From positions 51,150,001 to 51,214,000 of the forward strand of contig OZ024740.1 of NCBI GenBank assembly GCA_964016885.1: a stretch of DNA of 64,000 nt, read 5' to 3'. This document shows positions 1,553-61,299 of this stretch, in pieces; the stretch's first letter is position 1; each line of letters opens with the position of its first letter. The translations under genes were made by a program, and so were the position numbers. Source of the stretch: Eledone cirrhosa (lineage: Eukaryota). The notes beneath the pieces were generated by a model that was not told the DNA's origin, made no database searches, and was given only the letters and a program-made list of their open reading frames with translations.

Positions 1553-1643
1553 GTAAGGACGAGTGGTTACACTTTCATTACGTTTACACTCAGTCTAGCT
1601 CTACACCTCGACACAGAAGTAAACCTAAACATCGAGTGCTCAC
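1553..1643 (-). ncRNA. Type I hammerhead-like motif with degenerate core
   Basis: GTGAGCAC TCGATG- t TTAgGTTTAC..GTAAACgTAA t GAAA GTG-taac-CAC TC GTCCTTAC. Confidence 0.5.
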
Positions 1644-2020
1644 CCGAGTAAACCTACAGTAACTCCACATTATACTCCCTGGATATATATATATATATAA
1701 AAGGTAAACAGAAATAACAACACAATCGGTACAGTATATGGAAGGTATTAGAGAGAGAGAGAGAGAGAGAGAGATGTGTCAATTATGATTTGTTACTTGG
1801 CAGAATGAATTACTGAAGTTGAAAATAAGCAAGGGAATTAAGAATGGTACTGAGGAAGCATATATACAAATGCAGATGACAGTTTGCGAAAGGTACATTT
1901 AGATCGTAACTGTCATACACTCTCAATTGGAAGTACCATTGGGGAATAAAAAAGAATTACTTTAAATTAGAAGTTACAACATAAAAACTTCATTCTTTTG
2001 TAAAAAGTATTTATATATAG

Positions 2021-2350
2021 AGGCACATGGCTTAGTGGTTAGAGCATTGGTCTTGCAATCAAAAGGTTGTGAGTTCAATTCTCAGACCGGGTGATATGTT
2101 GTTTCCTTGAGCAAGACACTTTATTCCACATTGCTCCAGTTTACTCAGCTGTAGAAATGAGATGATAGGGACTGGGGCCCTATCATTCCAAAGTGGTCGT
2201 GGAGGTGCCATGGCAAAAAAGCACCCAGCCCACACTGTAAAGGAGGTTGGTGTTAGGAAGGGCATCCAGCTGTAGAAATCAAGCCTGAATCAGTTCCCAT
2301 CCCACCCTTGCAAGCAGGGAAAAACGGACGTAAAATGATGATGATGATGA
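2021..2350 (+). mobile_element. tRNA-derived SINE, family A
   Basis: Near-identical to 1181-1525. Confidence 0.88.
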
Positions 2351-5300
2351 TATGTGTGTGTGTAAGAGAGAGAGTGTGTGTAATATACATCATCATCATC
2401 ATCATCGTTTAACGTCTATCTTCCATGCTAGTATGGGTTATATATCTATCATATATATATCTGTATATAATATTTATTAAAATAACAGATTAAAGTTTAA
2501 GCAAAGAATCACTAAGATCCCGTTAAGGGTGAAAGCAGCGATTCTTTGCTTAAACTTTAATCTGTTATTTTAATAAATATTTGCTCTACGGTTCTTATAT
2601 ATTTGATATATATTTATCCTTATTGAGCCCTCTTTGGATTTTACTCTTCAAATTTATTATTATTACTATATATATATAATATATATATATGTATAACACA
2701 CACACATGTATATATATATATTATACATAGAATTATATATAAAAGTGACTGATGTTGTTTGGAAATGTAAACTATTACTAAAAGTAAATCAGAATAAATT
2801 AGAAGATAAAATAGACACTACTTAAAATACATATAGACATATTGTTTGCATGAGTTATCACAAGAGGATATGCTTATTATCCAACTGACAATTGTTTGTT
2901 CAATAACTAATGTTATAATGAATATCAACAAGAAAAGATTGTAAGAAAACAAACTAAACAATGAGATTCAAATGAATGGATCATTTCAAGAACATTGATC
3001 CATATGACTGAAAAAACACAAATTAGCTCTAGTTGTTGTTCAACCCTAATTATTTCTGTATGTCACATTACAGAAAATATGCTCATTCTAATAATTGCAT
3101 TTGTCTTTTCTTTATTTTTTCTTTATTTTTGTTGTTATTGTTGTTGCATTTTCTTGTTGTTTTTGTTTTTTTAGTAGTTTTTCTCTGAAGCTAAGAGACA
3201 AGATCCACTTTAGAAAATACACTTTTGAATAAAAGTGATTTTGAGAGAACCCCAGTAAAATGTGAACTCAAAACTGTTTCCCTCATTCAGCTGCCTTAAT
3301 CACAATAACAATAACAACAATATCCATTAGCTGTAATGAGGTTTGATTTCACACCTTTATACTTAGTGGTATAACACTTTAACTGCACAGTCATTTTAAA
3401 ATGCCTGACAGCATGTGTGGCCATGTGATTTAGTAGAAATAGCAACCAAACCATCCTTATACTACTCCCTACCATCTTAGAAAAGGAAAAACACATCAGA
3501 TAATGTAGTCTGGGATTCATTAAGTCTGAATAAATAAATAAATAAATATAAAAGCAGGGCAGTTATAGGTGAAATCCCTTTATTCATAGCTCTGATCAAA
3601 GCAACAACATTATATATAAGAAAAAGGTTAATCCTTTCCAAATCATAAGAACTTTAGTTTTCATAGTATCAAATACAAAAAAATTAACTCCTACTGGATA
3701 TGACACAAGTTTATTGGTGGCAGTTCTTTTTACAGATCAATGAAATACTCATCAGTTTGCAATAGTACAGCTCTTTATAACAGTGAATCGTACTACACAT
3801 AGAACTTATTTACAGCAACATGAACTTGACCACAGACACAATGCATTATTAATGGCAAGATAAGGGTGGTGGATTGGCAGTACAGTTGGACATTATGCTT
3901 TGCGGCATATAGTTATGGCCCTATACATTCTGAGTTCAAATCCCGCTGAGGTTAGCTTTGCCTTTCATCTTTATGGGGTTGATAAAATAAAGTGCCAGTA
4001 ATGCACTGGGATTGATTTCACTTCCCCCAAAAATTGCTGGCCTTGTGCCTAAATCAGAAACCATTCTTAGTGGCAAGATACAAAATCCCTATTCTTTCTA
4101 TTGTAGCTGATTACTTTGGTATCCTTTTGAATCAACCATTTATAGCTTTCTTACAACTGACAATTTACCTTCATCATCCAGAGTGCAAACTGAGAAATGT
4201 TTAGTGATGTCTAGTGATGAATTGTCTGAGCATGTTGAAAAGAATATCTTGCAGCCCTGCTTTCTACACTCAAAGTTCAAACCCTGCTGTGATTAACTTT
4301 GCTATTTTGGGAGCAATAAAATAAAATACTAGTCCATAGCAGGGGATTGGCAGAATTGTTAAAGTGTCAGACAAGATAACTTGCAGTATCTGTTCCAATA
4401 TTTTGTGCTCTGAATTCAAATTCTGCATGGCAATTCAAATTCTGCATGGCAATTCAAATCCCATTAAGGGCCATAGTTAATCTCCAAACTATAGGTCCAC
4501 AAATTTTGAAAGCTGCAGGGTGAAGGAGGATTGTGGCTATCTGGTACTACAGTCAAATGATGGAAAACTACATAGTGGCTTCCTTATTAACATGTAAGCT
4601 TCTGCATTTGTCAGATCTGTGGATAATTATGTCCACAAATATAACAGATACACAATAACAGAAACAACAAAATGACAAGGCTCTACTTGAGTCAACAAAG
4701 AAGACTAGCTGACAGCTCACTCTGTTAGCAATTTCAGCCAAATTTGCCTTGTATTCTACCCTTGAATCTTAAATAAGCTGATATTGAAGACTACATTCAA
4801 TAACCTAATCTTAGTTACATGATGCTTGAATAAAGGTCAGGATGTTCATGGCAAAGATGCTTTTAATCATAGATTTGTTTAATGAGAGCCAGCTCAGAGC
4901 TAAAGAACCACAACAATGATCTACTAACATAAGATGCTTTACATATTGAAGACAATGAATCACTTCTAAAGATTCAATCTGAACTAACCCAAGGATGGGG
5001 AACATCCATTTGATCTACAGGACTCTTCAAAACTAAATGAAATACTGGTCCTTCAGTATAAAAGTCAATTTATGGTGAGGAAAAATATTGTGGGTTAACC
5101 AAACCAGCACACTGACCAGGTGAATGTAGAAATGGTCAAATGGTTAAGAAGTTTACTTTGAAATCATGTGAACTCAGGTTTGATTCCATTGTGTGGCATT
5201 ATGATAAAGGTTGTTTTTTTTTTTACTTAACCTTGGGTTGATCCAAACTATGTGAGTGAAATCAGATAGACAGTGACTCTTTTGAAGCCTGTTAGCTGGA

Positions 5301-59798: not shown

Positions 59799-61036
59799 TA
59801 ATAATATTGATATGTATATATACATATACATATAAATATATACATAGATATATGTATATAAACATACATATACACACACATATATATATATATATGGTCA
59901 CAGCCATCATTGGCTGTGACCTCTTCAGGCAGTTCGAATTGGTGTGGTAGAAACAGGTACACATGTTGCTAAAGTGTTTTACTCCGTCACTACTCCGATA
60001 TGTCCAGCTCCTGGTTGGGTTGTTATTTCTCTGAGGAACTGGAATCACAAACAACCAACATATACTCAAAATGTATGTATATATATATATATATATATAT
60101 ATATATATATATATATATATATATATATACAAATAAAGATTCAACGAGATTCGCATTTCGGCGGGCAGGAAAAGCGAAGCAAAACGCAAAAATCAGAAAT
60201 GATACTGGCAAAGTGCTCAATAGTTAAAAACAAGAGCTAAACAATGTGTTATGAAGCCATACAAAACTGAAAAGGTGGTCAAGAAGGTATTAACCACCCA
60301 AGCCAAAAACTAAATCAAGCTAAACAGGTCAAAACAAAATAAATGATAAAAAATAAATGATAAATGTATATATATATATATATATATATATATATATATA
60401 GTGAGGAGAAAAGAGAAAAGAAAGAAGGAAGAGATAGAAAGATATATATATGTATATGTATATATATATATATATATATATATATATATATATATATATA
60501 TATATATATATATATATATATATAGTGAAGAGAGGAAAAAAGAGTAAAGAAAGAAGGGAGAAAGAGAAAGAGAGAGAGACTTTTGATCAGGAACGCTGTC
60601 AAAATGAAAACAGCTGTAGATAATGGTTAAAAAGTAAATTGATGAGGTGTATGTGCGAATATTATAGATGGTATTCAAATATTAAAGGTCTAAAATATAG
60701 AAACTGGGTGTATTATTTTATATTGGGTTTGTTTACAAAATCTACGAAGGTTTGAACGAAAATTTAAGGCTATCGAAAAAGGGTCAAAGGCTTAAAATAT
60801 GCTGAGAAAACTAAATGCCTTGTAGAATATAATGAAATATGTGTAAAAAAAATATAAAAAATATATATATATATATGTAAAAAAAGAAAAAAATGTGTAA
60901 AAAATTAACAGTTATTCGTGGAAAAAGTTATAGGACATTAGCTATATACTTTGTGAAAGGTCTTGAACAGATTTATTTGGTTTTTGTAATCATAAATCCT
61001 TCTTCTATTTATTATAGAGTTGAAATTCGAGATAAT

Positions 61037-61103
61037 TGTAAATTTTTCAACTTCTCAGTTTCAGCTTGTTCACTTAAGCTTTCTCAATGCATAAGAATTC
61101 ACA
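61037..61103 (-). ncRNA. Hammerhead-like motif with U3-A8 covariant core (UUGAGAA)
   Basis: TGTGAATTCTT-atgca TTGAGAA AGCTT-aagtgaac-AAGCT GAAACT-gaga-AGTT g AAAAATTTACA. Confidence 0.5.
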
Positions 61104-61299
61104 GAACTTTGGCCAGTTTGTAGGTACATCATGTGTCACATTCTGGGGAGATGTGTGCTATGAGGTTACCTAAGCTGAAGCATGTAACCTATTTCCACAC
61201 ATTTCCCCAGAATGACACCTAATCTACATATTAACTGATCAAACTATTGTGAATTTGAGTGACGAAGCTGAAACTGCAGGGCTTGCAGTCAATATATAT

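What the first reader, a model, noticed from the sequence alone, without database searches (positions are those of the whole stretch)
1553..61290. Dispersed set of hammerhead-ribozyme mini-elements, mostly in (TA)n-bounded islands (Penelope-pLTR/retrozyme-like system)
Seen: about 12 loci fold by hand into type I hammerhead topology, i.e. stem I, C(U/C)GANGA, stem II, GAAA, stem III, NUH, stem I'. They are 1553-1643(-), 1843-1900(+, weak), 2506-2545(+, weak), 10367-10446(+), 11173-11260(+), 14887-14997(+), 17546-17591(-), 38503-38555(-), 57823-57912(+), 59896-59928(-, half), 61037-61103(-) and 61265-61290(+, half). Most sit in non-coding islands of about 130-1200 bp next to TA or other dinucleotide microsatellites. 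Several have an AT-rich or AATAAA tail and an inverted partial self-copy. Primary sequences are largely unrelated while the fold recurs. Known: Penelope-like elements and animal non-LTR retrozymes carry type I hammerheads, often with minimal stem III, and Penelope insertions often have inverted or tandem pseudo-LTRs. Inference: these are many families of non-autonomous ribozyme-bearing retroelements that favour (TA)n. I saw no GIY-YIG/RT partner ORF in the window.
Basis: partly seen in the sequence, partly recalled or inferred. Interest (0 to 1): 0.9.

Follow-up and report, generated by a model that had tools for sequence, protein, structure and literature searches.

The report
Ribozyme-bearing Penelope retroelement stubs
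Most of these small folds are the leftover tail ends of a known kind of jumping gene that carries a likely self-cutting RNA motif and inserts into TA repeats; they are ordinary for this genome, except that one very abundant family has a changed letter in the motif's catalytic core.

Summary
Partly confirmed, and mostly known. Seven of the 12 calls lie on type I hammerheads of repeat families (2506 and 59896 partial; 10367, 11173, 14887, 17546, 57823 whole but imperfect). 1553 and 61037 lie in such families but not on the ribozyme. 1843, 38503 and 61265 have no homologue. Four families (2506, 14887, 59896, 60527-61052) are 3' ends of Hydra-clade Penelope-like elements (PLEs): longer copies carry RT plus GIY-YIG upstream. 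Two families (10367, 11173) are non-coding 633- and 659-bp tandem units, i.e. retrozymes. A descriptor finds 59 hammerheads in 750 kb of evenly spaced genome samples against 0-1 in shuffles, roughly 140,000-350,000 per genome, so the window is not enriched. Hydra PLEs with hammerheads and (TA)n targeting are published for Octopus (PMC8557442), and this scan found the same system on other DNA of this genome. What remains: U-U at the base of helix II is the commonest form (27 of 59), and a family with at least 20,081 copies has A instead of U at core position 4. Cleavage is untested; no RNA run was available.

The parts
1540..1682 (+). Stub of family F1: long-tail arm 1585-1682 (+) with a short inverted arm 1540-1586 (-), between TA runs.
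1690..1748 (-).
   Evidence: 20 matches in fetched loci
2475..2668 (+). Stub of family F2 (Hydra-clade PLE 3' end): forward arm 2514-2668 with long tail, short inverted arm about 2475-2513. The hammerhead is cut inside its core. The family core is CAGAAGA (A at position 4) with U.U at 10.1/11.1.
10353..10699 (+). 5'-truncated copy of the 633-bp tandem unit F10 (retrozyme-like, non-coding); hammerhead 10367-10446, one mismatch in helix I
10720..11526 (+). About 1.2 units of the 659-bp tandem unit F11 (retrozyme-like, non-coding); hammerhead 11173-11260, A.C at the base of helix II, one change in the helix III palindrome
14722..15053 (+). Stub of family F14 (Hydra-clade PLE 3' end): forward arm with hammerhead 14887-14997 and an inverted long-tail arm from 14722
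17459..17621 (-). Old, diverged copy of family F17; small hammerhead 17546-17591; not TA-bounded
38416..38472 (+).
57604..57950 (+). Two-armed stub of family F57: inverted long-tail arm 57604-57802, forward arm 57799-57950 with hammerhead 57823-57912 (core CCGAAGA, weak base of helix II)
59895..60070 (-). Stub of family F59 (Hydra-clade PLE 3' end); hammerhead ends after helix II
60527..61052 (-). Fragment of coding Hydra-clade PLE family F61: last 37 codons of the GIY-YIG ORF (60941-61051) and an internally deleted 3' UTR, ending in TA before the hammerhead
   Evidence: tblastn 71% over 37 aa, E 3e-8

Best explanation
The islands are 5'-truncated 3' ends of several Hydra-clade Penelope-like retroelement families and of two non-coding tandem-unit families, whose full-length members carry a type I hammerhead motif near the 3' end, and they were likely written into (TA)n runs by the Penelope reverse transcriptase-endonuclease. 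SHOWN: multi-copy families; fixed 3' ends with variable 5' ends; TA runs at the 3' end; RT and GIY-YIG ORF 0.6-1.4 kb upstream of the hammerhead in four families; head-to-tail 633/659-bp units in two; back-to-back arms with one long and one short end. INFERRED: the endonuclease cuts (TA)n; reverse transcription starts from both sides of the break at two fixed sites of the RNA and stops early, which leaves 100-800-bp stubs and fold-backs; the hammerhead cuts tandem precursor RNA into units, mostly as a dimer through its palindromic helix III. Complete copies span the cleavage site, so the template was either uncut or re-ligated into a circle. The tandem units borrow the enzyme in trans.
For: Fixed 3' and ragged 5' ends in five families. 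(TA)4 within 40 nt of the 3' anchor in 115 of 171 copies of eight families against 11% at random positions; within 130 nt, 147 of 171 against 19%. ORF on the same strand upstream of the hammerhead: F2 in L334, L335, L337; F14 in L259; F59 in L344, with a second copy aligning across ORF end and hammerhead; F61 in L345-L347. Hydra motifs CxCx5C, YIG and CxxC, DKT and RWR, against PMC8557442 section 11. Of 29 F61 loci picked on the ORF end alone, 17 reach a hammerhead and 10 pass the descriptor. F10 array of 21 cores mostly 633 nt apart; 9 of 10 neighbouring pairs at least 98.9% identical; longest Met-ORF 39 aa. Back-to-back pairs: 66 of 90 long+short, 19 short+short, 5 long+long. Descriptor: 34 hits in 400 kb and 25 in a held-out 350 kb against 0-1 per shuffle. 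Palindromic helix III in 17 of 29 hits when no palindrome was required.
Against: No cleavage or expression data. No ORF-linked copy was found for F57 (3 extended loci), F1 (2), F11 (3; one has a Hydra ORF 1.1 kb behind a second copy, link not shown) or F10, F17 and F38b (fetched flanks only). Covariation inside F17 is no higher than in shuffles (218-334 of 500 reach it). The hammerhead fold of F2 is 2 kcal/mol above the predicted minimum, and the z-score is -0.3. Pfam names no domain in the ORFs and the PDB search is empty; the clade rests on motifs and on likeness by eye to published Hydra proteins, not on a tree. Genome searches return the 40 copies closest to the window copy, so family majorities may be subfamily majorities.
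Confidence: 0.9

Rival explanations
1. All islands are independent non-autonomous retrozymes (small, probably circular RNAs) that never had an ORF.
For: F10 and F11 are non-coding tandem units, and the window's F11 copy is longer than one unit. No ORF was found for F57, F1, F17 or F38b.
Against: F2, F14, F59 and F61 are contiguous with RT and GIY-YIG coding sequence. F57 runs at least 1 kb upstream without a tandem repeat.
Confidence: 0.12
2. In several families the hammerhead is a passenger: it no longer cuts, or cuts too slowly to matter, and the family spreads without it. This is compatible with the best explanation on origin and differs on function.
For: F2 has A at core position 4 in 30 of 30 distinct copies with intact flanks and at least 20,081 exact 28-mer copies. 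F57's commonest form has two mismatches at the base of helix II. An F1 subfamily has U at position 6. Naiad PLEs spread without canonical hammerheads (PMC8557442). Only 1 of 9 Xenopus dimers cleaved in vitro (preprint).
Against: Dozens of unrelated families keep all three helices, the palindrome and the NUH site. U.U at 10.1/11.1 is the best tolerated mismatch (PMC3088659), and an axolotl family with it cleaves (PMC7229834). F2 keeps a predicted extended, bulged helix I.
Confidence: 0.3
3. The folds are chance three-stem patterns in AT-rich, inverted-repeat-rich DNA.
For: True for five of the 12 calls as drawn (1553, 1843, 38503, 61037, 61265). No Rfam match; a strict descriptor is at shuffle level in the window.
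Against: 59 hits in 750 kb against 0-1 per shuffle. Family copies carry intact motifs at a fixed place relative to the ORF and the 3' end.
Confidence: 0.02

Closest known systems
Hydra clade of C-terminal EN+ Penelope-like elements, including Hydra-1_Obim of Octopus bimaculoides (Craig et al. 2021, PMC8557442; read: passages, section 11, rows of supplementary files S1/S2)
   Same: Short RT-linker-GIY-YIG ORF, CxCx5C linker, DKT and RW(K/R) motifs, no CCHH, hammerhead near the 3' end, (TA)n targets, inverted 5'-truncated arms with a tail on one side.
   Different: The supplement lists one Octopus Hydra family; here at least four ORF-linked families occur among the window's islands alone. The tails are longer than the 30-40 bp given there (tail anchors 46-130 nt behind the body anchor). 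Cores CAGAAGA, CCGAAGA and CCGATGA were not found as whole words in the supplement.
Minimal hammerheads of PLE pseudo-LTRs (Cervera and de la Pena 2014, PMC4209133; read: parts 1-2 of 4)
   Same: Type I topology, palindromic helix III suited to dimers, many unrelated families per genome, mostly single truncated copies, opposite-strand pairs, U3-A8 variant.
   Different: That paper calls G10.1-C11.1 highly conserved; here it is 8 of 59, with U.U 27 and A-U 16. Helix II often carries 30-90 nt inserts. The estimated number is far above the 2,000-9,000 per genome reported there.
Metazoan non-LTR retrozymes (Cervera and de la Pena 2020, PMC7229834, read: passages and section 15; Li, Clavereau and Pollet 2026, 10.64898/2026.07.22.740005, read: parts 1-3 of 5)
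   Same: Non-coding tandem units with one type I hammerhead each (F10, F11); axolotl has 126,247 motifs, half with U.U at the base of helix II; proposed to derive from PLE pLTRs.
   Different: Units of 633 and 659 bp are about twice the usual 300 bp though within the 51-972 bp range of the preprint. Circular RNA and cleavage are not shown here. No cephalopod is mentioned in the parts read.
Natural hammerhead core variants (Perreault et al. 2011, PMC3088659; read: passages and section 8, figure not visible)
   Same: U10.1-U11.1, U3-A8, U4C and a change at A6 are described.
   Different: A at position 4 is not in the text read. Figure 5 and Lunse et al. (PMC5785218, not held) may list it.

Membership tests
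Hydra-clade PLE (F2, F14, F59, F61) | [quoted passage not shown] | tested here: met
   501-aa F2 fragment has 143 homologues of similar build, one named a GIY-YIG endonuclease
Hydra-clade PLE (F2, F14, F59, F61) | CxCx5C linker, no CCHH motif in the endonuclease | tested here: met
   for F2, F59, F61; the F14 copy shows the linker across a frameshift; no CxxC between VY and YIG
Hydra-clade PLE (F2, F14, F59, F61) | N-terminal RWK and DKT motifs | tested here: met
   RWR and DKT in an F2 copy (L287, 89% identical to L337), DKT in F61, DKTS in F14; F59 copies are too truncated
Hydra-clade PLE (F2, F14, F59, F61) | Placement in the Hydra clade by RT phylogeny | not tested
   no tree was built; reference proteins were seen only as supplement excerpts
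Hydra-clade PLE (F2, F14, F59, F61) | Insertion into (TA)n | tested here: met
   115 of 171 copies of eight families against 11% background
Hydra-clade PLE (F2, F14, F59, F61) | Hammerhead in the terminal repeat; inverted truncated arm; one-sided tail | tested here: met
Hydra-clade PLE (F1, F17, F38b, F57) | ORF contiguous with the hammerhead-bearing end | tested here: inconclusive
   none found in the copies fetched; F1 and F57 share the two-arm build and the tail motif
Non-LTR retrozyme (F10, F11) | At least two consecutive head-to-tail units, each with a type I hammerhead | tested here: met
   F10: 21 cores in one 20-kb stretch. F11: only partial tandems (1.2-1.9 units) were seen
Non-LTR retrozyme (F10, F11) | No protein coding | tested here: met
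   longest Met-ORF 39 and 33 aa
Non-LTR retrozyme (F10, F11) | Expressed as linear and circular RNA | not testable with these tools
   no RNA holder listed
Type I hammerhead ribozyme | Three helices around CUGANGA, GAAA and NUH | tested here: met
   F10, F11, F17, F59, F61 and F1 with CUGA; F14 with CCGA
Type I hammerhead ribozyme | Canonical core in F2 and a paired base of helix II in F57 | tested here: not met
   F2 has A4 in 30 of 30; F57 passes in 0 of 30
Type I hammerhead ribozyme | Compensatory covariation | tested here: inconclusive
   not above shuffles in F17; 3 of 27 pairs in F1; across families the same fold has unrelated stems, but those hits were chosen by the descriptor
Type I hammerhead ribozyme | Self-cleavage at the NUH site | not testable with these tools
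   needs an in vitro assay

The most novel reading that the evidence does not exclude
This genome holds on the order of 200,000 intact hammerhead motifs, more than any count in the papers read, and its most successful Hydra-clade families carry cores that textbook rules call crippled: A at position 4 in a coding family of at least 20,081 copies, U at position 6 in an F1 subfamily, and U.U or A.C at the base of helix II in most. Either these are new active natural variants, rescued by tertiary contacts or the PLE protein, or the hammerhead serves the element as a shape rather than as a catalyst. Matched canonical and variant families in one genome make the open question of what PLE hammerheads do directly testable.
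Probability: 0.35. Interest if true: 0.55.

Novelty: new member of a known kind. Interest (0 to 1): 0.3.

Why it matters
The system is published, also for Octopus, so the finding as posed is not new. Two things still matter. First, Rfam sees none of these motifs, while a relaxed descriptor implies 140,000-350,000 per genome, so a large class of small TA-bounded repeats in this lineage can be classified as PLE stubs and retrozymes. Second, the role of the hammerhead in PLE transposition is stated to be unclear (PMC8557442). A coding family that reached 20,000 copies with a changed core letter, beside families with canonical cores, is a natural experiment on whether cleavage is needed.

Tried and rejected
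Rfam scan: no hammerhead family at E<=10, only microsatellite and hairpin noise and tRNA-derived SINE heads. Strict descriptor with a paired 10.1-11.1: shuffle level, because it misses the U.U and A.C forms. Neptune assignment: considered first, rejected after the motif comparison with PMC8557442 section 11. Pfam and PDB searches of the ORFs named nothing. RNA evidence: no RNA holder listed; this is no evidence on expression. Within-family covariation in F17 was not above shuffles. Calls 1843, 38503 and 61265 were rejected for lack of homologues; very old diverged copies could escape these searches, so 1843, which passes with one defect, is not excluded. No descriptor hit in 40 kb flanking the window. 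Whether A10.1 is fixed across the whole F57 family is open; it rests on the 30 closest copies. Literature: 'octopus' + 'hammerhead ribozyme' gave 5 papers, only Craig et al. relevant; 'hammerhead' + 'U4A' gave 0; searches gave no A4 variant in the listings or passages read. Lunse et al. was not held, and figures and bioRxiv supplements could not be seen, so absence from print is not established.
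Full report
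Setting. The window is G000:C1:51150001-51214000 of a 3.0-Gb animal genome. It is about 35% GC and dense in (TA)n, RTE-type LINE pieces and SINEs. That the animal is an octopus is my inference from the repeats and from likeness to published Hydra-1_Obim; no call names it.

Check against chance. Rfam returns no hammerhead at E<=10. A descriptor needing a paired 10.1-11.1 gives 0-1 hits, like shuffles. After looking at family copies I wrote a second descriptor: helix I of at least 4 pairs; core C(U/C/A)GANGA or U(U/C)GANAA; helix II of at least 3 pairs with a mismatch or bulge allowed at its base; GAAA; a palindromic or 4-pair helix III; NUH. It gives 0 hits in the window. On 40 evenly spaced 10-kb stretches it gives 34 hits, 12 stretches positive, against 0 in 6 shuffles. 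On 35 further stretches, fetched after the descriptor was fixed, it gives 25 hits, 11 positive, against 0-1. The bootstrap estimate is 136,000-348,000 per genome; it rests on 750 kb, and 12 of the 59 hits come from two tandem arrays. The window would be expected to hold about 5 intact motifs and holds none, so it is an ordinary, decayed sample.

The twelve calls. Each island was searched in the genome. Seven calls sit on family hammerheads: 10367 (F10), 11173 (F11), 14887 (F14), 17546 (F17) and 57823 (F57) whole, 2506 (F2) and 59896 (F59) partial. Descriptor passes among fetched loci are 23/30, 25/30, 20/30, 2/9, 0/30, 16/30 and 14/20 in that order. The fold at 1553(-) is built across an inversion junction; the family's hammerhead is on the other strand, further upstream, in 11 places among 30 loci. 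The fold at 61037(-) overlaps the last codons of a GIY-YIG ORF. 1843, 38503 and 61265 have no homologue.

What the families are. All five families tested have a fixed 3' end and ragged 5' ends in the sense of the ribozyme. (TA)4 follows within 40 nt of the 3' anchor in 115 of 171 copies against 11% at random. Longer copies of F2, F14, F59 and F61 carry RT and endonuclease coding sequence on the same strand, ending 0.6-1.4 kb before the hammerhead. The proteins have YRDD, a CxCx5C linker, YIG, a late CxxC, DKT and RWR, and no CCHH. These are the features given for the Hydra clade, almost all of whose families insert in (TA)n and carry hammerheads (PMC8557442); its supplement lists Hydra-1_Obim with both. 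The F61 test is independent of the fold: 29 loci were picked on the ORF end, 17 reach a hammerhead 640-1040 nt downstream, and 10 pass the descriptor. F10 and F11 are non-coding units of 633 and 659 bp in tandem and fit the published definition of non-LTR retrozymes; for F11 only partial tandems were seen. For F1, F17, F38b and F57 no ORF link was found in the copies fetched.

How it likely works. Shown: the stub anatomy above, and back-to-back arms with one long and one short end in 66 of 90 pairs (overlapping loci were removed by sequence, a few may remain). The window's F1, F2, F14 and F57 islands all have this build. Following a lead from earlier scan notes I looked for a shared tail signal: a short motif GAGY-CT(C/A), which I defined after seeing the tails, lies mostly 42-65 nt from the long end in 76 of 100 long-tail copies of six families, against about 1% per 120 nt. 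Inferred: the Hydra endonuclease cuts (TA)n; the RT primes from both sides at two fixed RNA sites and usually stops early; the hammerhead processes tandem transcripts, mostly as a dimer, since helix III is a perfect palindrome in 17 of 29 hits when none was required. Complete copies span the cleavage site, so the template was uncut or re-ligated; the circle model is proposed in PMC4209133 and is not shown here.

Deviant cores. Clustering 342 descriptor hits from 1.5 Mb of fetched loci gives 49 clusters, 22 with two or more hits. In the unbiased 750 kb the base of helix II is U.U in 27 of 59, A-U in 16 and G-C in 8. U.U is known and tolerated. F2 is more unusual. A 28-mer covering G5 to helix III has 20,081 exact matches and 0 for the reversed control. 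Position 4 is A in 30 of 30 distinct copies recognised by flanks. In contigs of two DNA runs of one study no other letter reaches 4% at that place. The three helices and a bulged extension of helix I can form at -11.3 kcal/mol against a minimum of -13.4. An F1 subfamily has CCGUCGA in 6 of 11 places, and F57's commonest form has A.C and C.C in helix II. The searches found no A4 variant, but the paper most likely to list one was not held.

Against my reading. No RNA run holds the sequence. Covariation inside F17 is at shuffle level and weak in F1. Pfam and PDB name nothing. No tree was built. Homology searches favour copies close to the window's own.

Verdict. These are new members of known kinds, already noted by this scan on other DNA of the genome. 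Interest 0.3; the A4-core family is the part worth a bench test.

Noticed in passing
window:41072-45339: Gypsy-type LTR retrotransposon with gag-, protease-, RT/RNase H- and integrase-like frames, broken by frame changes; its two ends are about 86% alike over 253 nt.
   Followed up: no
window:15365-16632: Tc1/mariner-like DNA transposon with terminal inverted repeats and a broken transposase, inserted in TA directly behind the F14 island.
   Followed up: no
window:26690-27804: 13 near-identical copies of an 85-bp unit (99% matches).
   Followed up: no
window:60130-60345: TA-bounded piece of another repeat family (6 matches in fetched loci, up to 94%) ending in GAAA, a near-palindrome and a UC site on the minus strand; probably one more hammerhead family, 5' half not identified.
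   Followed up: partly
window:56521-57247: 106-nt inverted arms, 94% complementary, 515 nt apart: MITE-like; a TA-bounded piece at 56440-56545 is shared with two loci.
   Followed up: no
window:1187-1244, 2028-2085, 57533-57590: tRNA-like heads of a SINE family (Rfam tRNA 28-31 bits), each next to a PLE stub in the same TA run.
   Followed up: no
window:20890-21185 and 63899-64000: Long, nearly perfect fold-back structures; no hammerhead found in them.
   Followed up: no
L337:1411-2520 and L338:2-974: A second PLE type with a CCHH endonuclease motif lies upstream of Hydra elements in two loci, so canonical PLE clades also occur and PLEs nest in the same TA runs.
   Followed up: no
L325 and L308: Further tandem hammerhead arrays (units of about 482 and 311 bp) turned up in evenly spaced samples.
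   Followed up: no
long tails of F1, F2, F14, F57, F59, F61: Shared short motif mostly 42-65 nt from the long end in 76 of 100 copies; motif defined after the fact.
   Followed up: partly
L301-L392 (evenly spaced samples): 14 of 75 ten-kb stretches hold a Hydra-like ORF remnant.
   Followed up: no
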